This document shows positions 1 to 19,730 of a DNA stretch of 64,000 bases, one piece after another. The position numbers were made by a program, and so were the translations under genes. Origin of the DNA: Candidatus Uhrbacteria bacterium CG10_big_fil_rev_8_21_14_0_10_48_11 (GTDB lineage Bacteria > Patescibacteriota > Patescibacteriia > GWA2-46-9); assembly GCA_002793855.1 (NCBI GenBank), contig PFET01000009.1:21749-85748 (forward strand), given 5' to 3'. Every line of letters starts with the position of its first letter. Position 1 is the stretch's first letter. Under the pieces are notes generated by a model. That model had not been told where the DNA came from. It saw only the letters and a program-made list of their open reading frames with translations, and searched no databases.

Positions 1-1109
1 GACCCAACACCGTTTCTTTGGCGCAGGGGATACCATCATTTGATACCCCAAAAGAAATTAAGAAAGCAACCATAACGGCGCTGAACGCCGGACGTGTTGC
101 TAAGTATTCACTCGCACCCGGACTTATCGAGCTGCGCGAGTTAATCGAGGGGTCTTTGGCAGAGGAGGGGTCGCAGTACGACGCGCAATCTGAAATTATT
201 GTAACGGCAGGTTCAATTGAAGCTATTAGCTCAACTATGCTGGCGCTACTAGAGCCGCTTGATGAGGTGATTCTTTTTTCACCCAGCTATGTATCCTACA
301 ACCAATCGATACGTCTCGCTGGTGCTAAACCTGTATATGTTGCGCTAGATGAAGCTAGTGGTTGGCAATTTGACAAAGAGGCTTTTCTTGCGGCGCTGAA
401 CAAAAAGACAAAAGCGGTGCTTATCTGTAACCCTAACAATCCAACGGGAACCATTTTTGACAAACAGCAGCTTTTGGCAATTGCCGAAATTGCATACGAT
501 CGGGGCATCTATATTATCATGGATGAAGTTTATAAAGATTTTCTCTACGAAGAAGATAAGACATCTCTTTATTCGCTGACTCAAGAAGTACGTTATCGTG
601 ACCTCGTAATTCGTATTTATAGTTTTTCAAAAGCGTTTTCTATGACCGGCTGGCGAGTGGGCTACCTAGTAGCTGCCGAACAAAACGCAAGAAAGATTTT
701 AGCGGTTCATGATGCGCTCGTAACTTGCGCGCCCGTCATATCCCAGTACGCCGCGATCAAGGCACTCGAAATGCCAAGAAAAGCATGGCTTACGTATTTA
801 AACGAATACAAGGGTCGTCGTAATCTTATGTATGATCACCTAAACAGAATTTCCGCACTGCACTTTACAGTACCAAGCGCTGCATATTTTTTCTTTCCAC
901 GAGTAAATGCAACACGCATACGCGATTATCATAACTCTGAAATGTTGTCATTGGCGTTACTACAGGTCGCCGGTGTAGCGGTCGTACCTGGTGCTGCTTT
1001 TGGTCCTTCTGGGGAACATCACTTACGTCTTTCCTTTGGTCGGGATAGAACTACTATCAATGAAGGGATGAAACGTCTTAGTGATTTCTTTGCCGCCTAT
1101 GCGTTATAG
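1..1109 (+). CDS. Class I/II (aspartate-family) PLP-dependent aminotransferase. The 5' end is truncated by the window edge, because the frame stays open back to base 3.
   Basis: The translation carries the SFSKAFSMTGWRVGY lysine-PLP motif region and the N-terminal substrate-binding segment. There is no in-frame stop upstream of the first listed codon. Confidence 0.75.
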   Translation, partial: PNTVSLAQGIPSFDTPKEIKKATITALNAGRVAKYSLAPGLIELRELIEGSLAEEGSQYDAQSEIIVTAGSIEAISSTMLALLEPLDEVILFSPSYVSYNQSIRLAGAKPVYVALDEASGWQFDKEAFLAALNKKTKAVLICNPNNPTGTIFDKQQLLAIAEIAYDRGIYIIMDEVYKDFLYEEDKTSLYSLTQEVRYRDLVIRIYSFSKAFSMTGWRVGYLVAAEQNARKILAVHDALVTCAPVISQYAAIKALEMPRKAWLTYLNEYKGRRNLMYDHLNRISALHFTVPSAAYFFFPRVNATRIRDYHNSEMLSLALLQVAGVAVVPGAAFGPSGEHHLRLSFGRDRTTINEGMKRLSDFFAAYAL

Positions 1110-1788
1110 CATCAAAAAAGTATTAAGCTGGTTCTTATGCGCGTTAGCTCGCTATCGACTTGGCCGTAGTCATACGGTGGTGGTGGCCGTCGCAGGCATC
1201 GTTGGGAAATCAACAGCCAAGAGAACCGTAGCAAAAAAACTTAAAAAATTCGGCGAGGTTTTTGTATCAAAGAAAAATTACAATACCGAAATTGGTTTAC
1301 CTTTAACCTTACTTGATCTTGAGCCACCTTACAGTCAAACAGTAGGGGAGTGGGGGACCATTTTGTATCGTGCTTTCGTGCGAGCCTTTTTTTCTCCTCC
1401 ACTCCCTCGTCTTGCGGTAGTAGAATTTGGTGTTGCAGAAAAAGGGGATATGCTACAACTGCTAAAAATTGTTACGCCAATAGTTGCCGTCATTACTAAC
1501 ATTTCGGTTTCAGACTTTAACTCGCAGACAACCCTAGAAGACTTAAGTATAGAGTTTGCTGTACTTGCAGCCAGCGTGCCCAAGCAAGGCCTAGTTGTAC
1601 TTAATGGTGATAACAATTACGCAAAAATAGTAAAGAGTGCGGCAAAAGCACGTATCATTACCTATGGCGCTAAAGAGGGAAACGAGGTTCATCCAGTAGC
1701 ACCTAAAGTTATGAGTAGCGCTAGCGATACGGCAACGTTGGCTGCTACAATAATTAGCGATTTTATTAGTCAGCGTGGTACGCCTTAG
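1099..1788 (+). CDS. Mur ligase family protein resembling only the central domain of MurF. It is degenerate and short, about 230 aa.
   Basis: It has a P-loop-like VAVAGIVGKSTAKRT and NYNTEIGLPLTLL (MurF: NNEIGVPLTLL). It also has VVEFGVAEKGDM...IVAVITNIS...GLVVLNGDNNY, matching the MurF central domain. No N-terminal or C-terminal Mur domains are present. The NIGxAH histidine is replaced (NISVSDF). The start is taken at MRYSIKK. The ORF track's earlier start at 1081 overlaps the aminotransferase more. Confidence 0.5.
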   Translation: MRYSIKKVLSWFLCALARYRLGRSHTVVVAVAGIVGKSTAKRTVAKKLKKFGEVFVSKKNYNTEIGLPLTLLDLEPPYSQTVGEWGTILYRAFVRAFFSPPLPRLAVVEFGVAEKGDMLQLLKIVTPIVAVITNISVSDFNSQTTLEDLSIEFAVLAASVPKQGLVVLNGDNNYAKIVKSAAKARIITYGAKEGNEVHPVAPKVMSSASDTATLAATIISDFISQRGTP

Positions 1789-1790
1789 TT

Positions 1791-2621
1791 ATGCAACAAA
1801 AAAGATTTCGTTGGAAATTTCAACCCTCACCCAGAGCACCGTATCGAGCCCCAGCACAAAAATCCACCAGACGTGGCAGACCCTTTCCGGTAAAAAGCGT
1901 GCTTGTGGTGCTCCTGATAGGTAGTTTCTACCTTGTATTTGGCACTAGGACGTTTGCTGTCACCGGTGTAACGGTAACGGGGACTCGCTACCTTGAAAAG
2001 CAGCAAATGATTGAAAAGGTAGACGCAATACTTTCTGAAAATCGTTGGTTTTTCATACCTGCTCGCAATTTCTTTTTTGTGCCCACCGCACAAGTAAGCG
2101 CTGCGCTCAGTAACATTCGCCTTGAGCGTATCACTGTAAAAAAATCTTTTCCAAACGGCTTATCGATAACAGTTGTTGAAAAGCAACCTAAAGCAGCGTG
2201 GCGTGCAGGCGATAAATGGTATGAACTAGACAAAAAGGGTATTATTATTAATCAAATTGTATTACCAAGCACCGATGCGCTTAAAGTTACGTTTGCTAAC
2301 TCGTTAGAAACTGGTGCAATCGGAAAGCAAATTATTCAACCCTCACTACTTAATACTGTATTAGCAGTAAATGCAAACCTTCCGGATTTACCAATTACAA
2401 AGGTGTCCGAATACGTTATTGATACGCAGAATAGTTACTCTATAGGACTTAGGGATACACAAGGTATTACCATCTACTTTTCGACAGAGTTGCCGCTGTC
2501 TATCCAAACGAATAAGTTGTCGGTCTTCTACGCAGAAAAAACTAGAACAGAACCGGATTGGTTGGCTAACATAGACTACATAGATCTTCGCTACGGTAGT
2601 ACAAAGGTCTACTATAAGTAG
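1791..2621 (+). CDS. ftsQ: Cell division protein FtsQ/DivIB-like, with one N-terminal TM helix plus a POTRA domain.
   Basis: It has a basic N-terminus and a hydrophobic segment VLVVLLIGSFYLVF. Then comes a POTRA-like segment VTGVTVTG.RYL....I....... ITVKKSFPNGLSITVVEKQPKAAWR...YELDKKG. It lies next to a Mur-ligase-like gene, as in dcw clusters. Confidence 0.55.
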   Translation: MQQKRFRWKFQPSPRAPYRAPAQKSTRRGRPFPVKSVLVVLLIGSFYLVFGTRTFAVTGVTVTGTRYLEKQQMIEKVDAILSENRWFFIPARNFFFVPTAQVSAALSNIRLERITVKKSFPNGLSITVVEKQPKAAWRAGDKWYELDKKGIIINQIVLPSTDALKVTFANSLETGAIGKQIIQPSLLNTVLAVNANLPDLPITKVSEYVIDTQNSYSIGLRDTQGITIYFSTELPLSIQTNKLSVFYAEKTRTEPDWLANIDYIDLRYGSTKVYYK

Positions 2622-2995
2622 TAATATTGTACGACACATAAGACTAGCCAGCTGCAGCAGAGGGTACTACGTGCCAACGCATCCCATGACACCAATAGTC
2701 AAAATGCCGTGCGCTAACACGATACTAATTTATACAGGAACCATGAAGGAAGTTTAAAATAACTTTAGTCTAATTTTTTGAAGTTACTAATTTTAAATAA
2801 ACTTAAAGGCAACGTTGTTAATTGAATAGAAAATTACGTACAGAATCGCATACCAAGTCATCACGTTAAATAGAAGTGCGCTAAGGTCATATTTAAGCGT
2901 CGTATAAGATATATTGTGCGACTCATTTATGATTTCTTTTTCTTAGCAACTACCCTTCCCCCCGCAACAATTATACAAAGAATACCACCGTCTGA

Positions 2996-3739
2996 TCACA
3001 GTTTTTCGTATTTTACAAAGAGATAATCTGTGCTTGACTCTCTCTGGTGACGTACCGATAGATACACCATGAGAAATGCAGCGCAATACAAAATGCGGAA
3101 AATAACCAAGTGCCAGTCGGTAACTAATTTTGCGAGGTCAATGACACCAAAGAAAACATACAAAAATATTGCTATGTCGTAGAGTATCTCGTAACCTGCT
3201 GCTTTTGCCTTAACTCCCCCACCGCGCCACGTTTTAAACTCTACTGCGAAGCTATAAACAAGCGCTACAATAATGGCTCCGATTGACACACGGAAAAGTA
3301 CTGCAGAAATAGGATTTGCAACTGCCTCTGCCGTAAAAAAAGTAATCGGTTCGAAAATAATCCCATTTGGCTGCGCCAGAAACCAACTACCCACTATGCC
3401 AACGATAACCGCTACGGTAGTCAGTATTTTAGCGACTAAAGGGCTCTTGAACACTTTTCTGCCAATGTAGTAATAAAGCGGAATGCCGCTAATGAATACC
3501 GTTGTCTGACTCATTACCGCAGAGGCAAAACGAGGGAAATCTTCTACCCCAAAGCCGATCATTGCATTTCTATAGGCATTTTGAGCCCACAGAAGGCCCG
3601 TAAACAGCCAGAACAGCCCATAGGAGACCATCATATGGTTTAAGTGCCTAGAAAACAGCTCGTAGACCAGTATAAAGGCAACGATAGAAATAACTGCCGT
3701 AACAAAAGCGTGAAATATAAGTCCTATACTAATAACCAT
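2996..3739 (-). CDS. Polytopic membrane protein of unknown function.
   Basis: It has six to seven hydrophobic helices. I moved the start to the internal Met (MVISIGL) that sits just downstream of the stop of the upstream M23 peptidase gene. The longer ORF-track version overlaps that gene by about 140 nt. Confidence 0.4.
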   Translation of the reverse strand: MVISIGLIFHAFVTAVISIVAFILVYELFSRHLNHMMVSYGLFWLFTGLLWAQNAYRNAMIGFGVEDFPRFASAVMSQTTVFISGIPLYYYIGRKVFKSPLVAKILTTVAVIVGIVGSWFLAQPNGIIFEPITFFTAEAVANPISAVLFRVSIGAIIVALVYSFAVEFKTWRGGGVKAKAAGYEILYDIAIFLYVFFGVIDLAKLVTDWHLVIFRILYCAAFLMVYLSVRHQRESSTDYLFVKYEKL

Positions 3740-3746
3740 AAAACCA

Positions 3747-4964
3747 TTAAGGCAAAAACATCTTAGGGTCAACGACAATGCCATTATCGTGTACCTCGAA
3801 GTGCAAATGCGGACCAGTACTGTATGGGCCGGTGCCTGGCTTACCTGGTGTTGCGCCAGAAAGAGCAATGACCTGACCTTGAGTAACAAAGGTGTCTACG
3901 GAAACGAATACCTTAGATACGTGACCGTACACGGTTGTTAGACCACCGTCGTTAACCAACACAACATACCAGTAGTTACTAGGGTTACCGGTTCTGACTT
4001 TCGCCACGTAACCAGAAGCGGCCGCCAGTATTGGCGTACCCTGAGCTGCCCGGATATCAATAGCGTCGTGGGTAAATAAGTAGTTAAAAGGATAGTCGGG
4101 ATCGTGAAATCTAGTGGTAATTTTATTTTTTGGTACTGGCCAAATAAGGCGAGGGGCAGGGCCATTCGTTTCTATGCCATGCGAGCGAAGCTTGTCACGT
4201 ACCGTTTGCTCTAAAGCAGCAACCGCTCTCGTTGCCTGTTCTTGCTGATCTTTAACTTGTTGCAACAGATCTGCAAACTTCTGCTCTGATGATTTCGTCT
4301 GCTTTAAAAGATAACTTTTTAAAGACTGCTGGTCTGATAAATCTAGCGACTGTTGGTGCAAATCGTCAGCAGCTGAAATAAGTTCGCCTCTCTTGTTTTC
4401 AACAAGCTGTTTTTCTTCAGCAAGGGCCTCCTGCTCTGCCTTTACTTGCACAATGAGATTGTCCATTCTGTTTTGGAGGGTATGCAAATTCTGCAACCGC
4501 CCATAAAAACTAAAAAAATTCTCTGTTGTAAAAAGTGCCTGCAATGGTGAGCGACTTTTTTCCCGAACGATATAGCGCAATAATGCTCCAAGGTCCCCTC
4601 GATACGTTTTAACTTTCTGCTCCCCATCCTTAATCTGGTTTTCGACGCTGTTTATTTCCAAATTAACCTTTTCAATGTTCAGCTGCGCGGCTTCTATGCC
4701 TACTTGTGTTTTGGAAATCTCGTCGCTCAATATACCCATCTGGTTAGCAAGCGTCCTTGTTTCGCTCTGCTTTTGCTTAAGACTTTTTTGATACTCAGCG
4801 GCCGTATCTTCTAGTTTTTTTATTTCTTCTTGCTTCGCGTTAATTTGCTGTTGCAGCGCATTAACTTCGGGGCTGTCAGCCGCTTTTGCCGTAGCGTTTA
4901 CTGTAGACACTAAGGTGCCAAGTAAAATAAATAACGTCGTGATGAAAAAAACTTTTCTACTCAT
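3747..4964 (-). CDS. Secreted M23 (LytM-family) peptidase with an N-terminal coiled coil, EnvC-like.
   Basis: It has a signal peptide MSRKVFFITTLFILLGTLVSTVNA and about 230 aa of heptad-rich Q/E/K/L sequence. The C-terminus has M23 motifs HDAIDI...GTPILAAASGYV...YGH...GPHLHFEV. Confidence 0.75.
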   Translation of the reverse strand: MSRKVFFITTLFILLGTLVSTVNATAKAADSPEVNALQQQINAKQEEIKKLEDTAAEYQKSLKQKQSETRTLANQMGILSDEISKTQVGIEAAQLNIEKVNLEINSVENQIKDGEQKVKTYRGDLGALLRYIVREKSRSPLQALFTTENFFSFYGRLQNLHTLQNRMDNLIVQVKAEQEALAEEKQLVENKRGELISAADDLHQQSLDLSDQQSLKSYLLKQTKSSEQKFADLLQQVKDQQEQATRAVAALEQTVRDKLRSHGIETNGPAPRLIWPVPKNKITTRFHDPDYPFNYLFTHDAIDIRAAQGTPILAAASGYVAKVRTGNPSNYWYVVLVNDGGLTTVYGHVSKVFVSVDTFVTQGQVIALSGATPGKPGTGPYSTGPHLHFEVHDNGIVVDPKMFLP

Positions 4965-6471
4965 GCTGCGAACTTAATTTTTGAGAAGCTAAAGTAATTC
5001 TGTTAATAGTTTCTTGTTTTCCTACAACAGAAGCTAAAGAAAAAGGGCTCGGACTAACCGCCTCACCAGAAAGCGCAACTCTGAGTGGCCATAGGGTCTC
5101 CCCTACCCCAAGCTTCTTATCTGTAATAAATTGCCGTAATATTTTCTCTAGCATCTCTTCGGTGTAGTCACTTTCCGCAATTGTCTGCATATACTCTTCT
5201 AACATTTTGAGTGTTTCTATGGTATTGACTGCTGTAGACTTTTTGGCAATGAGTAGTTCTCCGGCATAGTCATCTTTTGGTTCCAGGTAGGTTGTAATAG
5301 CCGCACCTGTCTCATCAAGCTGTTGTAATCTATTCTGAACTGCCAATAACGACTTTTCGAGTAGCCCGTTAGAAATTTTCTTCCCGCTAACGGGAAGAAC
5401 CATTTCTCTGTTTCCTTTGGCTACCATAGATTGTAGCACGAAGGGCAGTGCTAATTGAATAAATCTTTGTGGCGGCAATGCCTTAATATACTGGCCATTC
5501 ATCCATCTCAATTTTTCCTCATTAAATATTGCTCCGGCAGCGTGTACATCCTCGAGTCTAAACTCTTCGCTTATCTGCTGTCTTGTTAGCATTTCTTTTT
5601 CGCCTTTAGGGTGCCAACCGAGCAGTGCGAGAAAATTGATCATTGCTTCTGGCAAAAATCCTCTATCGCGAAACGAAAGCGCGCTTAAATCGCCGTGACG
5701 TTTGCTCAATTTTGAACGATCTGTACCAAGAATTAATGGCACATGAGCAAAGACCGGTGGCTGCCAGTCAAAAGCTTTGTAGAGTGCCAAGTGTTTTGGT
5801 GTTGAAGAAATCCATTCTTCACCACGAATGACCGTGGTAATTTCCATAAGGTGATCGTCGATGACTACCGCCAAGTGGTAGGTCGGCCAACCGTCACTTT
5901 TGACGAGAACCTGATCATCTATAAGCGCATTAGAAAACGAAATCTCGCCTCTGATTTTATCGGCAAAGGTACTCTCGCCCTCTGTGGGCATTTTAAGGCG
6001 GAGGACGTAGGGTTCGGTGTTCATCTTTTTTTTGGCTTCCGCCAACGGTAGTGAACGGCAGTAACGATCATACCCTGTTGGCTTTTTATCGCGCTGCTGA
6101 CCCTCTCGCATTTCCTGCAGCCGCTCTGCGGTACAGAAGCAAGGATAGAGAGTCCCCTTCTCTTTTAGCTCTTCGATGTACGGCTTATAGATAGCAAGTC
6201 GCTCAGACTGTCGATATGGACCAAAAGCACCACCAATATCTGGGCCCTCGTCGTGGGTTATACCATACCAGTTAAGTGCCTCAAAAATAGCCTTTTCTGA
6301 TTCTGGTACAAAACGATTACGGTCAGTGTCTTCAATTCTCACAATCAATTCGCCTCTGGTGCTCTTAACATGCAGCCACTGCAAGAGCGCTATCCAAATG
6401 CTACCAATGTGTGGCATCCCTGTTGGAGAAGGCGCAAATCGCGTTCGTTCTTTTTGGTTACTTGTTGACAT
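4957..6471 (-). CDS. gltX: Glutamate--tRNA ligase.
   Basis: HIGH motif PTGMPHIGS and KMSKS-type LSKRHG. The RFAPSPTG start is typical of class I GluRS. Confidence 0.9.
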   Translation of the reverse strand: MSTSNQKERTRFAPSPTGMPHIGSIWIALLQWLHVKSTRGELIVRIEDTDRNRFVPESEKAIFEALNWYGITHDEGPDIGGAFGPYRQSERLAIYKPYIEELKEKGTLYPCFCTAERLQEMREGQQRDKKPTGYDRYCRSLPLAEAKKKMNTEPYVLRLKMPTEGESTFADKIRGEISFSNALIDDQVLVKSDGWPTYHLAVVIDDHLMEITTVIRGEEWISSTPKHLALYKAFDWQPPVFAHVPLILGTDRSKLSKRHGDLSALSFRDRGFLPEAMINFLALLGWHPKGEKEMLTRQQISEEFRLEDVHAAGAIFNEEKLRWMNGQYIKALPPQRFIQLALPFVLQSMVAKGNREMVLPVSGKKISNGLLEKSLLAVQNRLQQLDETGAAITTYLEPKDDYAGELLIAKKSTAVNTIETLKMLEEYMQTIAESDYTEEMLEKILRQFITDKKLGVGETLWPLRVALSGEAVSPSPFSLASVVGKQETINRITLASQKLSSQHE

Positions 6472-7687
6472 GAGATAGTTGATCTAAGGCGATATGAAGC
6501 ATAGCGTGACGTACTGGATTGACGACCGAATAGATATCTTTTTTTTCTACCCAGCGCCAGTCAACGTGTTCAAGCTGGTCCAGCGCAAAATCATTATCAT
6601 TTCCGACAAAGCGCAGATAAAAAATAGTTTGTTTCTGTCCGCGATAACCGTAGCGTCGATTGTTTACCGATAAAAGTTCGTTGTTTTGATAACGAGTCTT
6701 CCAGCTATAACGATACACGTTTTTTCGAGTTCTGCCTAAAACTTCGAACTTATCCGTACCGAGTTCCTCGTAAAGTTCTCTTTGTATGGCAAGACTGAGC
6801 CTTTCTCCCGGCTCTACACCCCCTTGCGGTAATTGCCAATGTCCTGGCTGATCTTTACGCTCTACAACTAGTACTTTACCTTGTTTATTCATTATAAAAC
6901 CGACAACACTAGTACGGTAACGGAGGCTCACTGAAAACATCCACCTCATTACAAGCAAAGGAAAACCAATAATAGCCCTTCTGATTCTATTTATCCGCCA
7001 CGGTTCACGCAACAACCGCCACAACCACTCTACCCCGAAACGGCGCATTAGTTTTGGCGCGCGTCTGACCCTCCCAGCCAAAATATCTAAACTACCACCA
7101 ACACCAATTGCCACCTTAACGCTTGGACAGTCTTTTAGAAAAGTATGCATCCACTTCTCCTGCTGACCGTGACCAAGAGCAACAATAAGCACGGTGGGTT
7201 TTGTCTTTTGTATGCGCTCTATAACGGCTTCGTGCTCATGGTCGTTCAGTACAGAAAACGAATTCTGATACTGATACGTTCCAAGTGGCGGAGCAAACGC
7301 ACCAGCAACTGTAGCATGAAATTTTTTCTTAGCTATCTCCGTCGCCTTCGTTAACACGCTGGATGTTGCCCCTAGAAAAAAAAAGCTATGTTGTTTTGGC
7401 AGATCGGTTAAAAGTGTTACTAAAAAATCAATTCCCGTTACTCGTTTTAGTCGAAGTCCATAAACGGCCCTGCAGGCAAGAACAAGACCTATGCCGTCTG
7501 GAAGTGCCATAACTGCCTCATTTAATGCCCTGCGAAATTCAGCGTCAGCGTGAGCAAGTACTACCATCTCAGGGTTAGGCGTTACCACATAGCGTTGCTC
7601 GGTCTCGTTGCACCAACGCGCAACAGAAGCGCTCGCGGCTTCTAGCGAAATATCATCGAGCACTATCCGGAAACAACTATGGCGCAT
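6458..7687 (-). CDS. Fusion protein. The N-terminal domain is a WecB/TagA/CpsF-family glycosyltransferase and the C-terminal domain is a NUDIX hydrolase.
   Basis: The N-terminal about 240 aa end in GVEWLWRLLREPWRINR, the characteristic C-terminus of the WecB/TagA/CpsF family. The C-terminal about 150 aa contain a perfect Nudix box GGVEPGERLSLAIQRELYEELG. The start is taken at MRHSCFRIV (Met 38 of the ORF-track protein), which gives an 11-nt overlap with the upstream gene. Confidence 0.65.
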   Translation of the reverse strand: MRHSCFRIVLDDISLEAASASVARWCNETEQRYVVTPNPEMVVLAHADAEFRRALNEAVMALPDGIGLVLACRAVYGLRLKRVTGIDFLVTLLTDLPKQHSFFFLGATSSVLTKATEIAKKKFHATVAGAFAPPLGTYQYQNSFSVLNDHEHEAVIERIQKTKPTVLIVALGHGQQEKWMHTFLKDCPSVKVAIGVGGSLDILAGRVRRAPKLMRRFGVEWLWRLLREPWRINRIRRAIIGFPLLVMRWMFSVSLRYRTSVVGFIMNKQGKVLVVERKDQPGHWQLPQGGVEPGERLSLAIQRELYEELGTDKFEVLGRTRKNVYRYSWKTRYQNNELLSVNNRRYGYRGQKQTIFYLRFVGNDNDFALDQLEHVDWRWVEKKDIYSVVNPVRHAMLHIALDQLSHVNK

Positions 7688-8243
7688 AACGCAGAGGTAC
7701 CTCCTTGCAAACCGTATACCTAAGCCCTTCGGACCCAAGGTCGCTGCGGTAAAGATTAACTTTTGTTGCCTGCCACGTGGGTGGCGCCAAGTTGGCATCT
7801 TGTGAAATTTTTGATTCTGAAATGCTTTGCTGTTCTTTTAACCTTCCTACTGTAACGTGAGGAATCCATGTTTTACTGTCATAGCCAAAATGGGCATTGT
7901 TGAGTTCATTCTTAAGCAAGGTATGCAGTTTTCTAAAAGCACCGCTTACGTCATTTACTCCGCAAGTAACCACTCGGGCATTGACAGCGCTTGGAAAACA
8001 CACTAGCGAACCTAGAGCTAATGCAAAATTATCAGCTTCTGAGCCAACGGTAGCGGTTATCCTGCAGAGGGTAGCAAGTCCCTCATCGCTTACTGCCGGA
8101 AAGAAAAAAAGAGTACTATGAATATGCTCCCTTCCCACAATTCGAAATTGAGGGTTACTTTGTAAAAGTTGACGACCAACTGTCTGAATATACTCCTTAA
8201 CCGCATCTGGCACGGATATTGCTATAAAGTATCTAGATGGCAT
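7677..8243 (-). CDS. 2H phosphoesterase (ThpR/LigT-like RNA 2',3'-cyclic phosphodiesterase).
   Basis: Two H-x-T/S-x motifs sit in the expected spacing: HIHSTLFF and HVTVGRL. The start is taken at MPSRYFIAI. Confidence 0.6.
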   Translation of the reverse strand: MPSRYFIAISVPDAVKEYIQTVGRQLLQSNPQFRIVGREHIHSTLFFFPAVSDEGLATLCRITATVGSEADNFALALGSLVCFPSAVNARVVTCGVNDVSGAFRKLHTLLKNELNNAHFGYDSKTWIPHVTVGRLKEQQSISESKISQDANLAPPTWQATKVNLYRSDLGSEGLRYTVCKEVPLRYAP

Positions 8244-8289
8244 AGCTGAATTGTAGCACACCTCGTGTACTGGGTTTAACGGTAATGTA

Positions 8290-8318
8290 TTGACCTTTTT
8301 TTCTTAAACATTTACGAT
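8290..8318 (+). promoter_or_regulatory. Candidate sigma-70-type promoter of clpB (TTGACC, 17 nt, TACGAT).
   Basis: TTGACC lies at 8290-8295 and TACGAT at 8313-8318. The spacer is 17 nt. The element sits directly upstream of the CIRCE element. Confidence 0.35.
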
Positions 8319-8319
8319 G

Positions 8320-8346
8320 TTAGCACTCTATAGTTATGAGTGCTAA
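8320..8346 (+). promoter_or_regulatory. CIRCE element (HrcA operator), a perfect match to the consensus TTAGCACTC-N9-GAGTGCTAA.
   Basis: The sequence reads TTAGCACTC tatagttat GAGTGCTAA and ends 9 nt upstream of the clpB ATG. Confidence 0.75.
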
Positions 8347-8355
8347 CATACCAAA

Positions 8356-10992
8356 ATGACAAACTTTACCACAAAATCGCAGGAAGCCATGCAGCGCGCC
8401 TATCGTTTAGCATCAGAGCGCCAGCACCAACAAATCGAACCGCTTCATCTTTTTGCGGCACTTTTGAGCCAAGATGAAGGGATTGTACCACCAGTACTTA
8501 AACAACTCGAGGTTCCAACCCTTGCTCTTAAGGAAACGGTGCATGGTGAACTTGAGAAAATACCCAAAGTCGGTGATGGCGGCGTTGCTCAACTCTATCT
8601 AAGCCAGCAGATGGCAGAGGTAATGAAGCGCGCTGACGAAGAAGCGACTCACCTTAAAGATGACTATATTAGTACTGAGCATTTCTTTTTGGCATTGACT
8701 GAGGTACCCAGCACTGCTGCTTCCACCCTTAAAAATTATGGCGTTACCTACGATGCCGTACTTAAAGTATTGGTAGATGTGCGAGGCAACCAACGCGTTT
8801 CCGACGCAGAACCTGAGTCTAAATTTCAGGCGCTTGAAAAATATTCTAAGAATCTGACCTCTCTGGCTCGCGCAAATAAGCTTGATCCGGTTATTGGACG
8901 GGACGACGAAATACGGCGCGTTATGCAGGTGCTTAGTCGCAGAACAAAAAATAACCCGGTTCTTATTGGTGAGGCAGGTACCGGAAAAACCGCCATCGCA
9001 GAAGGTCTTGCGCAACGAATTGCGGCGGGAGACATACCGGAATCACTGGCCGACAAAGATCTTGTCGCGCTCGATATTGGCTCTATGCTTGCGGGAGCAA
9101 AATTTCGTGGAGAGTTTGAAGATCGCCTCAAAGCCGTACTAAAAGAAATTGATGCTTCGTCCGGTAAAATTATTTTGTTCATTGACGAACTGCATACCTT
9201 GATTGGTGCTGGTGGTGCTGAAGGTGCAATCGATGCCGCCAATATGCTTAAACCTGCTTTGGCTAGAGGTGAGCTGCACGCTATTGGCGCTACTACGCTA
9301 CAAGAGTACCAACGACACATCGAAAAAGATCCGGCACTAGAACGTCGGTTTCAACCAGTCTATGTAGGTGAACCAACCCTTGAAGACACGGTGGCTATTT
9401 TGCGCGGCATCAAAGAGCGTTACGAAGTTCACCATGGGGTTCGCATTACAGACGCTGCGGTTGTTGCGGCAGCGGAACTTTCCCAGCGTTATATCACTGA
9501 CCGCTTTCTTCCTGATAAAGCAATTGACCTTATTGACGAAGCCGCTTCGGCCTTGCGAATGGAAATTGACAGCCTGCCAACCGAACTTGATAAACTAGAG
9601 CGTCGCATTAGGCAACTTGAAATTGAAAAGCAAGCTTTAAAAAAAGAAACTGATCAGGCTTCAAAAGAACGTCTAGAGAAATTAGAGCAAGAACTTTCAG
9701 GCAGCAAAGAAAAGGCTGACCAGCTTTCTGTTCACTGGAAAAATGAAAAAGAAATTATCAGTCGCATACGAACAGCAAAGAAACAAATTGATGAGCTACG
9801 GCAAACATCCGATATTTTTGAACGCGGATCTGATTTTCAAAAAGTTGCGGAGATTAGATATGGTAAAATACCCGATCTTGAAAAAGAAGTTTCAGCGCAA
9901 GAAAAAAAATTGGTAGCCATGCAAAAAGAAACTGGCCAACGTATTCTGACGGAGGAAATTACACCAGAAGATATTGCCCGCGTTGTTGCCCGCTGGACAG
10001 GTATACCGGTAGAAAAAATGCTCGAAGAAGAGAGCGCCAAGCTTGCCCGCGCCGAAGAGGAGCTCGAAAAACGTGTCGTTGGCCAACAAAAGGCAATAAG
10101 CTCAGTTGCCAACGCTCTCAGACGTTCGCGTGCAGGCATTGCGGAAGAAGGGCGTCCTATTGGGAGCTTCCTCTTTGTTGGTCCAACTGGCGTCGGTAAA
10201 ACTGAACTTGCCAGAGCGCTTGCTTCTTTTATGTTTAATGACGAACAGGCAATGGTACGAGTCGATATGTCCGAGTATATGGAACGACACAGTACGGCTA
10301 AGTTCATCGGCTCCCCTCCCGGGTACGTCGGGTACGAAGAAGGCGGCCAGCTTACTGAAAAAATTCGCCGGCGGCCGTATTCTGTTGTACTGTTTGATGA
10401 AATCGAAAAAGCGCACCCAGACATTTTTAACCTGCTTTTACAAATCTTAGAAGACGGTCGTTTGACAGACGCCAAAGGACGGGTCGCAAGCTTCAAAAAT
10501 GCCATCATTGTGATGACCTCAAACCTTGGTAACGAAATAATTCAAGAATACTCACTGGGATTTGCGGATGACGAAAAGCAGGCGCAGGAAAAAGAGGAAG
10601 AGATGGACACGCGCGTTCTTGGGGTAATAAAGAAAACAATGAAGCCGGAGTTTATTAACCGCATTGACGACATCATAGTATTCAGACACCTGACTAAGCG
10701 TGATTTGGATACTATTGTTGATCTTCAACTTTCACTGGTTTCTAAACGACTTGAGACAAAACATATATCGCTTGACGTTAGCGACAAGGCAAAAAAGTTT
10801 CTCATCCGTGCCGGCTACAGTACAGAGTATGGCGCGCGACCACTCAAGCGAACAATTCAGACGCTAATTCTCGACCCGCTAGCAAAGAAAATTGTTGAGG
10901 GAAAAATTACCTCCGCCACTACTGTAACCATCGATAGCGACGGCAAAAAAATAAGCCTAAAAACAAAACAAGCTAACAAAAAATCAAACTAG
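8356..10992 (+). CDS. clpB: Chaperone ClpB, a class-1 AAA+ disaggregase.
   Basis: It has a Clp-N domain and two AAA modules (GEAGTGKT and GPTGVGKT Walker A). A long coiled-coil middle domain sits between them. The C-terminal D2-small domain is present. Confidence 0.95.
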
Positions 10993-15512: not shown

Positions 15513-17015
15513 CTACCTCGGAACATTAGGCAAAGTCGAACCCATGTTTATAGCACGATTTTCGCTCCCCGTCAACCCGGGTGCGTAAAATAGCAATGCA
15601 AGTAACACAAGCCCTATACCAAGCGGATGATTTAAATACGGACTCCCTATGTTTACCATCAAAACTGCAAGAACACCAAAAAGTAAGCCGAGCTCTGTAA
15701 CTTTTTTTTGGTATCCCCAATAGATAATGCAACTAATTAGTAGCCCATAGGAAGCAATCCCAAGAAGTCCAAGTTTTAACCACATATCAAGGTAACCCCA
15801 CTCAAAAGCGGTTGTTATGTATAGTCCGCTACTGTTTTCCTCGCGCACGCGAGGATCGTTACTAATGTAGGTTACGCTACTACCAAAACCGTTGCCGATA
15901 AACTGATGTTTTTCTATTTGTTTCCATAGGGGCGAAAGCTCATTCCATCGACTTGACGCTGCCGCGTCGCTCGCTGTTAAACGCTCGTCAAGCGAAAACT
16001 TAGCTCCTGACGGCGTACCAGGAAAGGGTACGGCAACGACAGCTACAACGACAAGGTATCCTATTAGTACGGACAACGCCGAGAAACCAACCGATCGAAT
16101 TGCCTCTACCATGCGTCGACTAGCTAGCAACCACACTACGGCTAACATAAGTACACCAACCCACCCAAGCCAAAAGCTTCTTGAATAACTAACGATAAGC
16201 GCAGCCGCCAAAAAGCTGACATAAAGTACAGCTTTGCCATAATGCCAAACTGGTCGATGCACGTGCGAGAGCACCGCATAAATCCATACCACCAATAGGT
16301 AGATCTGGCTTTGTATAAAGATGCGATAAAGCCCTGTACCGAGTGGGGTAAACTCCCCTATCTTACTGTCTCTCAGCCACATGTAAATATCTGGCACGAA
16401 ATACTGAAAATAGGAATGGGTGAATACGTAAAATAACAATACTGTTTTTACGGCAAGATAACCGGCGGCAACAAACAAGAGATGAACACAGTCTTTGAAA
16501 AAATCTTTATCCGCGATGACCACTAACAGTGGTACGACAAGCGCAAAGTAAAGGTAAGCATTAGCGTCAAAAAAAACGGCCCCAAAGTTTGCCCCAGAAA
16601 GTACCCCGCGAACAAACGCCAACCCAATAAAGAAAGCGAGTGGACCCATTACCGCCAACAATGCTTTACCTGAAGGCTTACTTAATTGTAGACGGAGCTC
16701 TTTTACGTGCAGTACGCTTGCGGCCATAAGCAAAAGATAGAAGGCAATGCGCATAGACACCTGTGTTTCGCCAAGTTGAAGCCAAAGTAGGTATCCGTGT
16801 GACCCCACAAAAAGCTCGGCAAAAGCAACGAGTACCGCATACTTATAGTTCGTCAGCGCAAGGATGACATAGGCAACAAAAAGTATTACAAAAAAAGCGG
16901 TTCGGAATGAAGGCTCAAAATAAGCAAAAAAAGACAGCACGTCAACCAAGACAAAAAGGGGTAGCCAAACTCTTGTTGTCATCTGTTCTGGAAATAGTGC
17001 TCTTGTAATCGTCAT
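15513..17015 (-). CDS. Wzy_C / O-antigen-ligase-family polytopic membrane protein (WaaL/PglL-like).
   Basis: It has about 12 TM helices. An SRSFWLGWVG motif and an HQFIGNGFGS...YITTAFEWGYLDMWLKLGLLG periplasmic-loop region are typical of the O-antigen ligase / O-oligosaccharyltransferase family. It is the last gene of a glycan operon. Confidence 0.5.
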   Translation of the reverse strand: MTITRALFPEQMTTRVWLPLFVLVDVLSFFAYFEPSFRTAFFVILFVAYVILALTNYKYAVLVAFAELFVGSHGYLLWLQLGETQVSMRIAFYLLLMAASVLHVKELRLQLSKPSGKALLAVMGPLAFFIGLAFVRGVLSGANFGAVFFDANAYLYFALVVPLLVVIADKDFFKDCVHLLFVAAGYLAVKTVLLFYVFTHSYFQYFVPDIYMWLRDSKIGEFTPLGTGLYRIFIQSQIYLLVVWIYAVLSHVHRPVWHYGKAVLYVSFLAAALIVSYSRSFWLGWVGVLMLAVVWLLASRRMVEAIRSVGFSALSVLIGYLVVVAVVAVPFPGTPSGAKFSLDERLTASDAAASSRWNELSPLWKQIEKHQFIGNGFGSSVTYISNDPRVREENSSGLYITTAFEWGYLDMWLKLGLLGIASYGLLISCIIYWGYQKKVTELGLLFGVLAVLMVNIGSPYLNHPLGIGLVLLALLFYAPGLTGSENRAINMGSTLPNVPR

Positions 17016-17878
17016 GGTCGAAACGCTTTAGGAATGAAAGTTAATAGTAGGGCCGGCAAAAGCGCAAGATAGCTAGCGGCAGCAACAATAATTTTGCCAA
17101 TACTTCTAAAGTGCTTTCGTGCATATTGCCGAGCGCTTTTAGAAAAAAACCATTGCCGCCAGAGCGGGCTACGCTGACCAAATGAGTGACCGCCGACATG
17201 CCTTGCCGTAGCCCACGGAACAAAAAAAATCAAACTGCCAATCTCTTTTGCACGCTTACAAAAATCTACCTCTTCAAACCAGATAAAAAAACGTTCGTCA
17301 AACCCGTTTAGTGAATCGAAAGTAGTTTTGCGAACAGCAAAGCACGCCCCCATCACCTGATCTACTTCACGTAACGTACTGTAATTAAAACTAGAAAGTA
17401 AATACCGACGCAACGGCAATATTGAGCTAAAAAAATGCTGCACCTTGAGCAAATTTAAGGCGAGCACAAAAACGCTCGGAAACGTGCGGACAGAAGCTTG
17501 AATGCTGTTGTCAACGTTTAGCATTTTAGGGCCAACAACCCCGACAAACGGTTGTGCTCTAAAAAAACGCGTAATACCTTCCAAGCATTGCGGCTGAAGC
17601 ACGGTATCTGGATTTAGAAAAACAAGATACTCGCACTCTTGAAGAACGCTGGCACCTTCGTTGCACGCTTTTGCAAAACCAAGATTCGTAGTATGTAATG
17701 AGAGTTTTATTCTGTTTTGGTACGTTTTGAGTAGCGCTACAGTTCCGTCTTTTGATCCATTATCTACGACCACAACTTCTACACCAGAACCATCCTGTAG
17801 AACGTTTGGAATACTTTCAAGACACGCGGCAATTGTTGCCACAGAATTCCACGTTACTATAACAATACCAATGTTCAT
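17012..17878 (-). CDS. Family 2 glycosyltransferase.
   Basis: IVIVTWNS...VVVVDNGSKDGT and a DXD-like region are present. The 4-nt overlap indicates translational coupling in the operon. Confidence 0.75.
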   Translation of the reverse strand: MNIGIVIVTWNSVATIAACLESIPNVLQDGSGVEVVVVDNGSKDGTVALLKTYQNRIKLSLHTTNLGFAKACNEGASVLQECEYLVFLNPDTVLQPQCLEGITRFFRAQPFVGVVGPKMLNVDNSIQASVRTFPSVFVLALNLLKVQHFFSSILPLRRYLLSSFNYSTLREVDQVMGACFAVRKTTFDSLNGFDERFFIWFEEVDFCKRAKEIGSLIFFVPWATARHVGGHSFGQRSPLWRQWFFSKSARQYARKHFRSIGKIIVAAASYLALLPALLLTFIPKAFRP

Positions 17879-18609
17879 AATGGCAGTTGATGTTTTTCGA
17901 TAATACGCTGTCGAGCGCTAGCGTACGCTCGATACCAACGCGGCGCCCAACCAAAATGCCTAAGCAACCACGCGGACAGCGGGTAGCACAAACGAGGCCG
18001 CCAACTACTTATGCCACGTCTTAGGAATACATTTCTCGCTCTAAAAAGTACGGCATCGACGAATAAACCATAGTGACCCTGCTCTGCCATCGTTAGCCAT
18101 AAATCCCAGTCCTGAAACCGAACCAATGATTCGTCAAAACCGCAATAAGCAGCTCGACGAATAAGCGCACTGGTATGAATATAATTTTGTCGTCTTAGGG
18201 CGGCAACGTCAAACGGTCGTGAGCGAATAAGTTTTCTACCAAACCGATGCGAAGCGTACACGTAAAACGTCTCAGGGTGCGACTGAAGGGCCGTCAGATA
18301 CTTCTCTAGCATTGTGGATTTGGCAATAATATCCGCATCGAGGAAAATGAGGTACTCACCTTTTGCCAACTGCGCCCCAATATTTCTTGCTTTTGGTGCG
18401 CCAGAGTGAGCGATACGCCGATAACTGCACGATAACGATTTAAACCTTGGGTCTATCAGATATTGCTTTACCGCTTCTTCCGTATTGTCGGTCGAACCAT
18501 CATCGATAATGAGCACCTCATCTGGCAAACGAGTTTGCGCTGCCAACGACTCCACGCAACCCTTAAGTGCTTTCGCATGGTTGTAGCTGGGTATAATGAC
18601 GCTAATCAT
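17875..18609 (-). CDS. Family 2 glycosyltransferase.
   Basis: MISVIIPSYNHAKAL...VLIIDDGSTDNT...FLDADII. Confidence 0.75.
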   Translation of the reverse strand: MISVIIPSYNHAKALKGCVESLAAQTRLPDEVLIIDDGSTDNTEEAVKQYLIDPRFKSLSCSYRRIAHSGAPKARNIGAQLAKGEYLIFLDADIIAKSTMLEKYLTALQSHPETFYVYASHRFGRKLIRSRPFDVAALRRQNYIHTSALIRRAAYCGFDESLVRFQDWDLWLTMAEQGHYGLFVDAVLFRARNVFLRRGISSWRPRLCYPLSAWLLRHFGWAPRWYRAYASARQRIIEKHQLPL

Positions 18610-19729: not shown

Positions 19730-19730
19730 A

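What the first reader, a model, noticed from the sequence alone, without database searches (positions are those of the whole stretch)
6458..8243. WecB/TagA-family glycosyltransferase fused to a NUDIX hydrolase, adjacent to a ThpR-like 2H phosphoesterase
A single ORF joins a complete WecB/TagA/CpsF-type domain, which uses UDP-ManNAc-type donors, to a C-terminal NUDIX domain with a canonical Nudix box. The 2H-phosphoesterase gene (two HxT/S motifs) overlaps its 5' end by 11 nt.

NUDIX enzymes hydrolyse nucleoside-diphosphate-X compounds, including UDP-sugars. A covalent fusion to a UDP-sugar-using transferase suggests substrate channelling or proofreading of the sugar-nucleotide pool. I do not recognise this fusion as described.
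Basis: partly seen in the sequence, partly recalled or inferred. Interest (0 to 1): 0.55.

Follow-up and report, generated by a model that had tools for sequence, protein, structure and literature searches.

The report
TagA glycosyltransferase fused to RppH-like Nudix
A real single gene, conserved in hundreds of ultra-small Patescibacteria, joins a cell-envelope sugar transferase to a Nudix hydrolase that looks like the RNA/dinucleotide pyrophosphatase RppH rather than a sugar-nucleotide hydrolase, so the proposed UDP-sugar proofreading role is not what the evidence favours.

Summary
A 409-aa ORF (6458-7687, minus strand) holds a complete GT26 TagA/WecG domain and a canonical Nudix domain. It overlaps a ThpR gene by 11 nt upstream and gltX by 14 nt downstream.

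It is not a frameshift artefact. All 120 best database hits share the architecture, and 80 species-level Patescibacteria genomes carry it full length. The spacer between domains is fixed at 9 aa in 172 of 198 sequences. AlphaFold gives pLDDT 95 and pTM 0.89.

All TagA catalytic residues are invariant. The Nudix half belongs to the RppH/Ap4A-hydrolase clade, not to sugar-nucleotide hydrolases, and keeps RppH's phosphate and Mg ligands.

The same Nudix is fused to ThpR instead of TagA in sister lineages, at the same locus (ThpR-Nudix, gltX, M23 peptidase). When it is a separate gene it still follows tagA.

My best reading is a bifunctional membrane-peripheral enzyme whose Nudix half acts on 5'-polyphosphate nucleotides or RNA ends. 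Hydrolysis of TagA's UDP product or donor remains a live rival.

I found no paper describing the architecture; databases annotate it only generically.

In passing: four related genomes carry a genuine tRNA-Gly(CCC) nested in-frame inside this ORF.

The parts
7677..8243 (-). thpR: RNA 2',3'-cyclic phosphodiesterase (2H/LigT family), 188 aa from the ATG at 8243. Its stop overlaps the fusion's start by 11 nt.
   Evidence: TIGR02258 E 6e-32, 111 bits against a cut-off of 65.7. PF02834 and PF13563. Sequence read. Homologues lie upstream of the fusion in 14 of 80 related loci.
6458..7687 (-). Whole fusion gene: GT26 TagA-like glycosyltransferase plus RppH-like Nudix, 409 aa plus stop.
   Evidence: P0001 is 100% identical at 409 aa. 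AlphaFold pLDDT 95.2, pTM 0.89.
7079..7687 (-). GT26 catalytic core (aa 1-203), with T36, N38, D64, R82, Q176 and E177.
   Evidence: PF03808. Profile match to T. italicus TagA 7mpk, E 2.4e-72. Foldseek TM 0.93. Residue mapping. Residue roles from PMC6493773.
6923..7078 (-). TagA C-terminal appendage (aa 204-255) carrying R215, R224, R231 and R234. It ends in a long helix (aa 229-255) that runs straight into the Nudix domain.
   Evidence: Aligned to TagA residues 199-237, including R205, R214, R221 and R224. Helix seen in the model. Spacer length is 9 aa in 172 of 198 homologues.
6461..6922 (-). Nudix domain of the RppH/Ap4A-hydrolase type (aa 256-409).
   Evidence: PF00293. Best NCBIfam hit is RppH PRK00714, 91 bits against a cut-off of 116. 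PDB: lupin Ap4A hydrolase 1.6e-32 and E. coli RppH 1e-24. Foldseek to RppH, TM 0.77. Residue mapping.
6755..6823 (-). Nudix box GGVEPGERLSLAIQRELYEELGT (aa 289-311), with catalytic E304, E307 and E308.
   Evidence: Regex scan. E304 and E308 are 116/116; E307 is E in 108 and D in 5.
4957..6471 (-). gltX (glutamyl-tRNA synthetase). It overlaps the fusion's stop by 14 nt and is the conserved downstream partner.
   Evidence: PF00749 and PF19269. Downstream on the same strand in 66 of 80 related loci, and also after the ThpR-Nudix fusions.
3747..4964 (-). M23 peptidase with a long coiled-coil N-terminus. Last gene of the conserved block.
   Evidence: PF01551. Present in 51 of 80 related loci and in L081-L086.

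Best explanation
This is a genuine bifunctional protein of Patescibacteria (CPR).

The N-terminal two thirds is a complete GT26 (TagA/WecG-type) inverting glycosyltransferase, including the arginine-rich C-terminal appendage. In TagA that appendage completes the active site and binds the membrane. By homology the domain adds the second sugar to a polyprenyl-diphosphate-linked GlcNAc-type acceptor at the cytoplasmic face of the membrane. The donor sugar is not assignable.

A length-invariant helix connects rigidly to a catalytically intact Nudix domain of the RppH/NudH (Ap4A hydrolase) clade. I infer that the Nudix half hydrolyses a 5'-terminal polyphosphate of a nucleotide-type substrate: (p)ppRNA ends, Np4N, or NDP/NTP. 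I do not think it hydrolyses UDP-sugars.

I further infer that this activity does not depend on TagA chemistry. On this reading the fusion provides fixed stoichiometry, membrane placement and mutual structural stabilisation. [quoted passage not shown]

The gene belongs to an ancient CPR block: thpR, tagA-nudix, gltX, M23 peptidase. Neighbouring genes in that block have fused more than once.

What is shown: the architecture, its conservation, the residue conservation, the subfamily assignment and the synteny. What is inferred: the substrates and the autonomy of the two activities.
For: The architecture is real and old.
- All 120 best hits carry PF03808+PF00293, at 34-53% identity.
- 358 species genomes matched, and the best 80 are full length.
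- The AlphaFold model has pLDDT 95.2 and pTM 0.89.
- The spacer is 9 aa in 172 of 198 sequences.

The TagA half looks competent.
- T37, N39, D65, Q167, R214, R221 and R224 are 116/116, and R83 is 102/116. Their roles come from PMC6493773.
- The profile covers the full-length TagA 7mpk, including its tail.
- A Wzx/Wzy/GT2/GT4 glycan cluster and the dcw cluster lie in the same window.

The Nudix half is RppH-type.
- NCBIfam's best hits are RppH models.
- PDB profile hits are Ap4A hydrolase (1.6e-32) and RppH (1e-24). Foldseek to RppH gives TM about 0.77.
- RppH's ligands are conserved: R8, Q37, E53 and E57 are 116/116; Y77 and Q95 are 115; R27 is 101; K140 is R in 110; E120 is E or D in 115. Their roles come from PMC7144940.

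The Nudix half appears autonomous.
- The same Nudix is fused to ThpR (18 ThpR-Nudix sequences in the set, about a dozen distinct).
- Those fusions sit at the same locus before gltX and M23, with no TagA within 8 kb.
- In a rough NJ tree two ThpR-Nudix groups nest inside the TagA-Nudix clade, next to the window's subclade.

There is a precedent: in the RppH-DapF complex the active sites are far from the interface (PMC6061855).
Against: - The invariant spacer, the confident rigid model and the persistence of fusion argue for more than a passive tether. Even when the genes are split, tagA-nudix adjacency is kept (L012, L087-L089).
- UDP is a competitive inhibitor of TagA (PMC6493773), and E. coli RppH can hydrolyse UDP and other NDPs (PMC7144940). 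Product removal is therefore chemically plausible.
- The base-binding cleft differs from E. coli RppH: S32 is H in 94 of 116, and V137 is H in 81 of 116. Substrate specificity may therefore differ.
- RppH equivalog cut-offs are not reached (91 bits against 116).
- I could not check whether genomes with ThpR-Nudix keep a TagA elsewhere, or whether genomes with the fusion have another RppH.
- No coordinates were available to measure the distance between the two active sites.
Confidence: 0.5

Rival explanations
1. Metabolic coupling inside the glycan pathway. The Nudix domain hydrolyses TagA's own nucleotide. The substrate is either the product UDP (ppU to pU + Pi, relieving competitive product inhibition and pulling the reaction) or the donor UDP-HexNAc.
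For: The connector is rigid and length-invariant, and the two-domain model is confident. Fusion or adjacency is conserved across the family, including the split forms. UDP competitively inhibits TagA, and R221 of the appendage contacts the UDP beta-phosphate (PMC6493773). The Nudix domain follows that appendage directly. E. coli RppH prefers 5'-diphosphate ends and hydrolyses UDP, CDP, GDP and ADP in vitro (PMC7144940). From my own knowledge, Gmm/WcaH in the colanic acid cluster is a precedent for a Nudix in a polysaccharide pathway.
Against: The Nudix subfamily is RppH/Ap4A-type, not sugar-nucleotide-type. The Nudix is retained, fused to ThpR, at the same locus without TagA. E. coli RppH acts only weakly on NDPs at physiological pH, and in its nucleotide-bound structures (described for NTPs) the phosphates do not reach the catalytic site. 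UDP hydrolysis costs an extra ATP to recycle.
Confidence: 0.28
2. An RNA-end or nucleotide-sugar-cap module. ThpR, the GT26 domain and the Nudix act on the same RNA substrates. For example, the module recognises or extends and then removes UDP-HexNAc-type 5' caps (GlcNAc-PP-U-RNA resembles GlcNAc-PP-lipid), with ThpR healing 3' cyclic phosphate ends.
For: ThpR-Nudix fusions link the Nudix to an RNA-end enzyme. The Nudix is RppH-like. gltX is the invariant neighbour. 2H and Nudix enzymes co-occur in RNA-repair neighbourhoods (PMC9503650). TagA crystallises with UDP-GlcNAc bound (7mpk).
Against: There is no direct evidence. Every characterised GT26 enzyme uses a polyprenyl-PP-sugar acceptor. The lipid- and membrane-related appendage and R83 are conserved. 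ThpR is adjacent in only 14 of 80 loci. Synteny within one CPR clade can be inherited without any functional link.
Confidence: 0.05
3. An artefact: two separate genes (tagA and a Nudix gene) merged by a sequencing or assembly frameshift, or by a lost stop codon, in this assembly.
For: Split versions do exist. L012 has four stops in a 75-nt spacer and the Nudix has its own Met. L087 has separate genes, and L089 is frameshifted.
Against: The ORF is uninterrupted. An identical protein occurs on 3 contigs from different sources. More than 190 distinct fused homologues have a fixed spacer. 80 species-level genomes carry full-length fusions.
Confidence: 0.01
4. The Nudix domain acts on the lipid carrier, cleaving undecaprenyl diphosphate or undecaprenyl-PP-sugar at the cytoplasmic face. 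From my own knowledge, some Nudix enzymes hydrolyse prenyl diphosphates.
For: The domain is placed next to a membrane-binding appendage. The cytoplasmic dephosphorylation of de novo Und-PP is poorly understood (own knowledge).
Against: The nucleotide-binding features of RppH are conserved, including the base-stacking R27 and Y77. The ThpR-Nudix fusions have no membrane element. No similarity to prenyl-PP-active Nudix enzymes was seen above that to RppH.
Confidence: 0.04

Closest known systems
TagA/TarA (GT26; N-acetylglucosaminyldiphosphoundecaprenol N-acetyl-beta-D-mannosaminyltransferase; T. italicus structures 5WB4, 5WFG, 7MPK, 7N41)
   Same: Same fold (TM 0.93). The profile aligns over the whole 244-aa enzyme, including the C-terminal appendage. 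T37, N39, D65, Q167, E168, R214, R221 and R224 are all conserved.
   Different: Only 27-29% identity. The NCBIfam TarA equivalog scores 123 bits against a cut-off of 350, so the donor sugar is unassigned. The uracil-stacking Y137 is not alignable. The C-terminal helix continues into a Nudix domain instead of ending.
E. coli RppH (NudH/YgdP) and lupin Ap4A hydrolase (Nudix, ApnA-hydrolase clade)
   Same: Best sequence, profile and fold matches for the C-terminal half. The Mg ligands E53, E56, E57 and E120 are conserved, as are the phosphate ligands R8, R27, Q37, Y77, Q95 and K140 (as R). The Tyr 16 residues after the Nudix box is also kept.
   Different: About 30% identity, below the NCBIfam RppH cut-offs. 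The base-cleft residues differ (S32 to H, V137 to H/N, F139 to V/I). The domain is never free-standing here: it is fused to TagA or to ThpR.
E. coli RppH-DapF complex
   Same: An RppH-type Nudix held in a fixed complex with an enzyme of cell-envelope precursor synthesis. The active sites are far from the interface and no substrate is shared (PMC6061855).
   Different: It is a non-covalent complex with a different partner (an epimerase, not a GT26). DapF binds helices alpha4/alpha5 of RppH, whereas here the partner is joined at the Nudix N-terminus. The interface geometry here is unknown.
GDP-mannose mannosyl hydrolase Gmm/WcaH/NudD (Nudix encoded in the colanic acid cluster)
   Same: A Nudix enzyme associated with polysaccharide synthesis that acts on the sugar-nucleotide donor.
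   Different: Resemblance is weak: NF011963 scores 20 bits against a cut-off of 146, and Foldseek gives TM 0.61 at 18% identity. It is a separate gene, not a fusion.
ThpR/LigT RNA 2',3'-cyclic phosphodiesterase, and 2H-Nudix associations in RNA repair
   Same: The upstream gene is a ThpR equivalog. ThpR-Nudix fusions with the same Nudix occur in Patescibacteria. 2H and Nudix enzymes co-occur in RNA-end clean-up neighbourhoods (PMC9503650).
   Different: Those described systems are phage or conflict-related and tied to KptA or sirtuin. Here the context is housekeeping (gltX, def, fmt, priA), and PADLOC gives only a generic Nudix hit.

Membership tests
GT26 (WecB/TagA/CpsF, PF03808/TIGR00696) | Profile match above the curated cut-offs | tested here: met
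   PF03808 scores 160.7 bits against 27.4. TIGR00696 scores 126.1 bits against 69.
GT26 (WecB/TagA/CpsF, PF03808/TIGR00696) | Catalytic base Asp65 and pocket residues Thr37, Asn39, Arg83, Gln167, Glu168 | tested here: met
   D64, T36, N38 and Q176 are 116/116. E177 is 113/116. R82 is 102/116. Roles from PMC6493773.
GT26 (WecB/TagA/CpsF, PF03808/TIGR00696) | C-terminal appendage with Arg214/Arg221/Arg224, needed for activity and membrane binding | tested here: met
   R224, R231 and R234 are 116/116. The profile aligns to 7mpk residues 199-237.
GT26 (WecB/TagA/CpsF, PF03808/TIGR00696) | TagA fold | tested here: met
   Foldseek TM (target) 0.90-0.93 to 7mpk, 5wb4 and 5wfg.
TagA/TarA sensu stricto (UDP-ManNAc:GlcNAc-PP-Und transferase) | Equivalog-level similarity, and use of UDP-ManNAc with lipid-alpha | tested here: not met
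   NF041710 TarA scores 122.7 bits against a cut-off of 350. Activity is not testable with these tools. No MnaA or TagO was seen in the 64-kb window.
Nudix superfamily (PF00293) | Nudix box GX5EX7REUXEEXGU and a profile match | tested here: met
   The box is at aa 289-311. PF00293 scores 69 bits against 21.1. E304 and E308 are invariant.
RppH/NudH - Ap4A hydrolase clade of Nudix | Closest relatives by sequence and fold are RppH/ApnA hydrolases | tested here: met
RppH/NudH - Ap4A hydrolase clade of Nudix | Phosphate and Mg ligands R8, R27, Q37, Y77, Q95, K140 and E120 | tested here: met
   R258 is 116, R277 is 101, Q288 is 116, Y327 is 115 and Q351 is 115. R393 is R in 110 and K in 3. E373 is E in 70 and D in 45. 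Roles from PMC7144940.
RppH/NudH - Ap4A hydrolase clade of Nudix | NCBIfam RppH equivalog cut-off | tested here: not met
   Best model NF001938 scores 91.1 bits against a cut-off of 116. The domain is therefore RppH-like, not a called RppH orthologue.
RppH/NudH - Ap4A hydrolase clade of Nudix | Pyrophosphohydrolase activity on pppRNA, ppRNA or Np4N | not testable with these tools
   Needs an enzyme assay.
Sugar-nucleotide Nudix hydrolases (e.g. Gmm/NudD) | Profile or fold similarity to a sugar-nucleotide hydrolase exceeding that to other Nudix clades | tested here: not met
   NF011963 scores 20 bits against 146. 1rya/2i8t give TM 0.61-0.64 at 17-18% identity, below RppH.
ThpR/LigT 2H phosphoesterase (neighbouring gene) | Equivalog profile and two H-x-T/S motifs | tested here: met
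   TIGR02258 scores 111 bits against 65.7. HSTL and HVTV motifs are in the translation.
Anti-phage defence system component | Specific PADLOC model hit and a defence-island context | tested here: not met
   Only a generic Nudix hit to the candidate PDC-S07 (42 bits). The context is housekeeping.

The most novel reading that the evidence does not exclude
The GT26 domain, the RppH-type Nudix and ThpR form one functional module that links envelope glycan synthesis to RNA-end chemistry. For example, it could act on nucleotide-sugar (UDP-HexNAc) 5' caps of RNA, whose GlcNAc-PP-uridine head mimics TagA's GlcNAc-PP-lipid acceptor. In that scheme the Nudix would be the decapping step and ThpR would heal 3' ends. 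Alternatively, the GT26 domain could be an obligatory DapF-like activator that ties mRNA decay to cell-wall precursor supply in CPR bacteria.
Probability: 0.06. Interest if true: 0.85.

Novelty: new variant of a known kind. Interest (0 to 1): 0.45.

Why it matters
CPR/Patescibacteria are a large, mostly uncultured part of bacterial diversity, and their envelope biology and RNA turnover are almost unknown. This family is very widespread and rigidly built, and it welds a committed-step envelope glycosyltransferase to an RppH-type pyrophosphohydrolase. The alternative ThpR-Nudix fusions occupy the same locus.

Together these give a concrete, testable handle on two questions:
1. How do these reduced cells process nucleotide or RNA 5' ends?
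2. Is glycan-lipid synthesis driven by removal of its UDP product?

The result also corrects the generic database annotation, which ignores the Nudix half, and it redirects assays from UDP-sugars toward ppRNA, Np4N and UDP.

If the halves are merely co-tethered, the case is a clean example of neighbour-gene fusion in compact genomes and is of modest interest.

Tried and rejected
- A single-protein scan of genome contigs found no confirmed relatives. The scan with an alignment succeeded.
- The afdb50 fold library was unavailable, so I could not list AlphaFold DB entries with the same two-domain fold.
- The promoter and terminator scan of 2600-8500 gave counts no higher than shuffles, so it says nothing about operon boundaries.
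- PADLOC gave only a generic Nudix hit, so the defence-system reading was rejected.
- Six literature searches (TagA/Nudix/fusion; Nudix/WecG/TagA; Patescibacteria/teichoic/TagA; CPR/Nudix/glycosyltransferase; 2H/Nudix/fused) found no description of the architecture.
- The frameshift-artefact reading was rejected on cross-assembly conservation.
- I first suspected that close 140-170 aa Nudix hits were free-standing RppH genes. The three whose contigs I read (L087-L089) all lie directly after a tagA gene, split or frameshifted, and L088 and L089 also lie before gltX. They are therefore the same locus.
- ThpR as an obligatory partner was rejected. It is upstream in only 14 of 80 loci, even with an HMM.
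- I could not obtain model coordinates, so the distance and orientation between the two active sites remain untested.

Full report
**1. What is in the window**

The minus strand carries an uninterrupted ORF at 6458-7798. The likely start is the ATG at 7687, which is preceded by AAGGAGG. This gives 409 aa, the length of its close homologues. It is identical to database protein P0001, found on three contigs from independent sources.

- Pfam assigns residues 60-234 (409-aa numbering) to PF03808 WecG/TagA (E 3.8e-47) and residues 257-385 to PF00293 NUDIX (E 5.4e-19).
- A canonical Nudix box, GGVEPGERLSLAIQRELYEELGT, lies at 6755-6823.
- The upstream gene (7677-8243) is a ThpR/LigT RNA 2',3'-cyclic phosphodiesterase. 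TIGR02258 scores 111 bits against a cut-off of 65.7.
- Downstream, gltX overlaps the fusion's stop by 14 nt, and an M23 peptidase gene overlaps gltX by 8 nt.

The unit is a four-gene, overlap-coupled block.

**2. The fusion is not an artefact**

- All 120 best hits in a 5.8-billion-protein search carry both Pfam domains. They are 385-549 aa long apart from one 273-aa fragment, and 34-53% identical.
- A scan of one genome per GTDB species found 358 matching genomes. The best 80 all encode the full-length fusion.
- Their record titles are Patescibacteria: Uhr-, Falkow-, Jackson- and Komeilibacteria, and Parcubacteria.
- A few titles say 'Gammaproteobacteria' or 'Methanosarcinaceae'. These loci share the CPR synteny, so I take those labels to be placeholders or mis-binning (inference).
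- Across 198 fused sequences, the spacer between the TagA and Nudix profile envelopes is 9 residues in 172 cases. The range is 7-11 apart from two sequences with insertions.
- AlphaFold2 with a 116-sequence alignment gives pLDDT 95.2 and pTM 0.89. One long helix (aa 229-255) runs from the TagA appendage straight into the first Nudix strand. No solved structure covers both halves.

**3. The TagA half**

- A family profile aligns to the full-length T. italicus TagA (7mpk) over residues 3-237, E 2.4e-72. The match includes the C-terminal appendage. Foldseek gives TM 0.93.
- The residues that Kattke et al. identify as catalytic or substrate-binding are Thr37, Asn39, Asp65, Arg83, Gln167, Glu168 and Arg214/221/224 of the appendage (PMC6493773). 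They map to T36, N38, D64, R82, Q176, E177, R224, R231 and R234.
- Six of these residues (T36, N38, D64, R224, R231, R234), plus Q176, are invariant in 116 sequences. E177 is 113/116 and R82 is 102/116.
- The NCBIfam TarA equivalog model is far below its cut-off (123 bits against 350). The protein is therefore a GT26 member with an unassigned donor sugar.
- The window also holds a Wzy_C/GT2/GT2/GT4/Wzx cluster at 15.5-21.2 kb and the dcw cluster (MurB, MurC, MurG, FtsW, MraY) at 42-47.7 kb. Polyprenyl-linked glycan assembly is therefore present in this organism.

**4. The Nudix half**

- NCBIfam's best hits are five RppH models. The best scores 91 bits against a cut-off of 116. GDP-mannose mannosyl hydrolase scores 20 bits against 146.
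- The family profile hits lupin Ap4A hydrolase (1.6e-32) and E. coli RppH (1e-24) ahead of all other Nudix structures.
- Foldseek ranks E. coli RppH first for this half, at TM about 0.77 and 30% identity.
- Gao et al. define RppH's ligands (PMC7144940). The phosphate ligands are R8, N10, R27, Q37, Y77, Q95 and K140. The Mg ligands are E53, E57, Q37 and E120. The base cleft is R27, S32, V137 and F139.
- In the family, R8, Q37, E53 and E57 are 116/116. Y77 and Q95 are 115. E56 is E in 108 and D in 5. R27 is 101. K140 is R in 110. E120 is E in 70 and D in 45.
- The base cleft differs: S32 is H in 94 sequences, and V137 is H in 81.

The domain should therefore be an active hydrolase of a nucleotide 5'-polyphosphate. 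It is RppH-like but is not a called orthologue.

**5. Context and evolution**

In the 80 related loci, gltX follows the fusion on the same strand in 66 and the M23 peptidase follows in 51. Genes further out or upstream include XerC/D, FtsQ, CorA, MurB, ClpB and a radical-SAM/Memo pair. ThpR is upstream in only 14 of 80 loci, even with an HMM.

The decisive result came from searching the Nudix domain alone against 1.84 billion representative proteins. Among the best hits were 323-344 aa proteins that are ThpR-Nudix fusions.

- NCBI names them 'RNA 2',3'-cyclic phosphodiesterase [Patescibacteria]'.
- Their loci (L081-L086) have the same synteny: fmt, def, priA and two unannotated genes on the opposite strand, then ThpR-Nudix, gltX and M23. 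No TagA lies within 8 kb.
- In a rough NJ tree of Nudix domains, two ThpR-Nudix groups nest inside the TagA-Nudix clade, next to the window's own subclade. E. coli RppH and most free-standing Nudix proteins fall outside.

I also looked at three close 'free-standing' Nudix proteins (L087-L089). Each lies directly after a tagA gene, either split or frameshifted, and L088 and L089 also lie before gltX. L012 is a clean split, with four stops in the spacer and a Nudix gene that has its own Met.

The Nudix gene is thus the constant element of the block. It has fused with whichever gene lies upstream, and it survives where TagA is gone.

**6. Interpretation**

The architecture is shown to be real, ancient and structurally constrained, and both halves look catalytically competent. 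The function is inferred.

I favour (about 0.5) two autonomous activities in one membrane-peripheral protein: GT26 glycan-lipid synthesis, and RppH/ApnA-type hydrolysis of (p)ppRNA, Np4N or NDP/NTP.

[quoted passage not shown] There RppH is bound to a cell-wall-precursor enzyme with the active sites far apart (PMC6061855).
- The ThpR fusions point to RNA-end chemistry, in line with 2H-Nudix associations in RNA repair (PMC9503650).

The main rival (about 0.28) is that the Nudix removes TagA's nucleotide.

- UDP competitively inhibits TagA, and the appendage's R221 contacts the UDP beta-phosphate.
- E. coli RppH hydrolyses UDP and other NDPs, though weakly at physiological pH.
- The rigid, length-invariant connector argues for more than a tether.

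Roles in RNA-cap or glyco-RNA chemistry, or in lipid-PP hydrolysis, are possible but unsupported.

**7. Novelty**

I found no paper describing the architecture. Databases name it only 'WecB/TagA/CpsF family glycosyltransferase'. It is a new variant, a new fixed architecture of two known enzyme kinds, and not a new kind of system.

**8. Seen in passing**

- Four related genomes (L005, L006, L009, L014) carry a bona fide tRNA-Gly(CCC) nested in-frame inside this ORF. Details are in the noticed-in-passing list.
- The window also holds a second Nudix gene, MutT/MTH1-like, at 38349-38812. It is split by a frameshift.

Noticed in passing
L005 8785-8859 (ORF 7971-9263); L006 2827-2902 (ORF 1974-3293); L009 1804-1878 (ORF 852-2309); L014 8779-8853 (ORF 7959-9608): A genuine tRNA-Gly(CCC) gene lies on the sense strand inside the coding sequence of the TagA-Nudix gene, in a beta-hairpin of the Nudix domain. 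It occurs in four species-level genomes of the Jacksonbacteria lineage.

Rfam tRNA scores are 70-76 bits against a gathering score of 29. The gene encodes its own CCA end and shows compensatory changes in the acceptor and T stems. The ORF stays open through it and returns to the Nudix frame in all four loci. In L006 a 76-nt variant changes the inserted peptide yet the frame is still restored. Proteins P0039, P0050, P0052 and P0075 carry the insert. A tRNA-Pro(GGG) follows 0.7-1.9 kb downstream in each locus.

It is unknown whether the tRNA is cut out of the mRNA, which would sever the message.
   Followed up: partly
L081-L086, gene at 8001-9017 in L081 (proteins P0198, P0262, P0174, P0271-P0277): ThpR(2H)-Nudix fusion proteins of 323-344 aa occur in Patescibacteria at the same syntenic position as the TagA-Nudix gene: before gltX and M23 peptidase, and opposite fmt/def/priA. 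No TagA lies nearby. They are annotated only as RNA 2',3'-cyclic phosphodiesterase.
   Followed up: partly
window 38349-38812 (-): A second Nudix gene (MutT/MTH1-like, Nudix box GKVETEETIEEAAKRELEEESGV at 38642-38710) lies between secD and secA. It is split into a 92-aa and a 56-aa ORF in different frames. This is a frameshift, meaning either a pseudogene or a sequencing error.
   Followed up: partly
L012 1217-2488; L087 183-1425: These are natural split forms of the fusion: a separate tagA gene (251 or 221 aa) followed by a Nudix gene with its own start. L012 has four stop codons in a 75-nt spacer, and its TagA has VPP in place of the conserved RAP motif.
   Followed up: partly
window 15516-21218 (-): A Wzx/Wzy-type glycan cluster (Wzy_C/O-antigen-ligase-like, two GT2, one GT4, a Wzx flippase) lies about 8 kb from the fusion. 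No initiating phosphoglycosyl transferase was recognised. The adjacent 183-aa ORF (21270-21818) has no Pfam hit.
   Followed up: no
window 36305-38110 (-): SecD carries an inserted PPIC-type peptidyl-prolyl isomerase (rotamase) domain (PF13616/PF00639, aa 169-275) within its periplasmic P1 region. This is an unusual SecD architecture.
   Followed up: no
window 1081-1788 (+) and 43157-44536 (-): A short 235-aa ORF with only the Mur ligase middle domain sits near an aminotransferase and FtsQ at the window start. A full-length MurC-like ligase is in the dcw cluster. The short ORF may be a truncated or divergent Mur-ligase paralogue.
   Followed up: no
L014 7959-9608 (P0078, 549 aa) and L040 7383-9188 (601 aa): Some family members are longer. 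P0078 has an extra PF18924 domain. L040 has an N-terminal extension of about 190 aa that is not ThpR by HMM. Neither was characterised.
   Followed up: no
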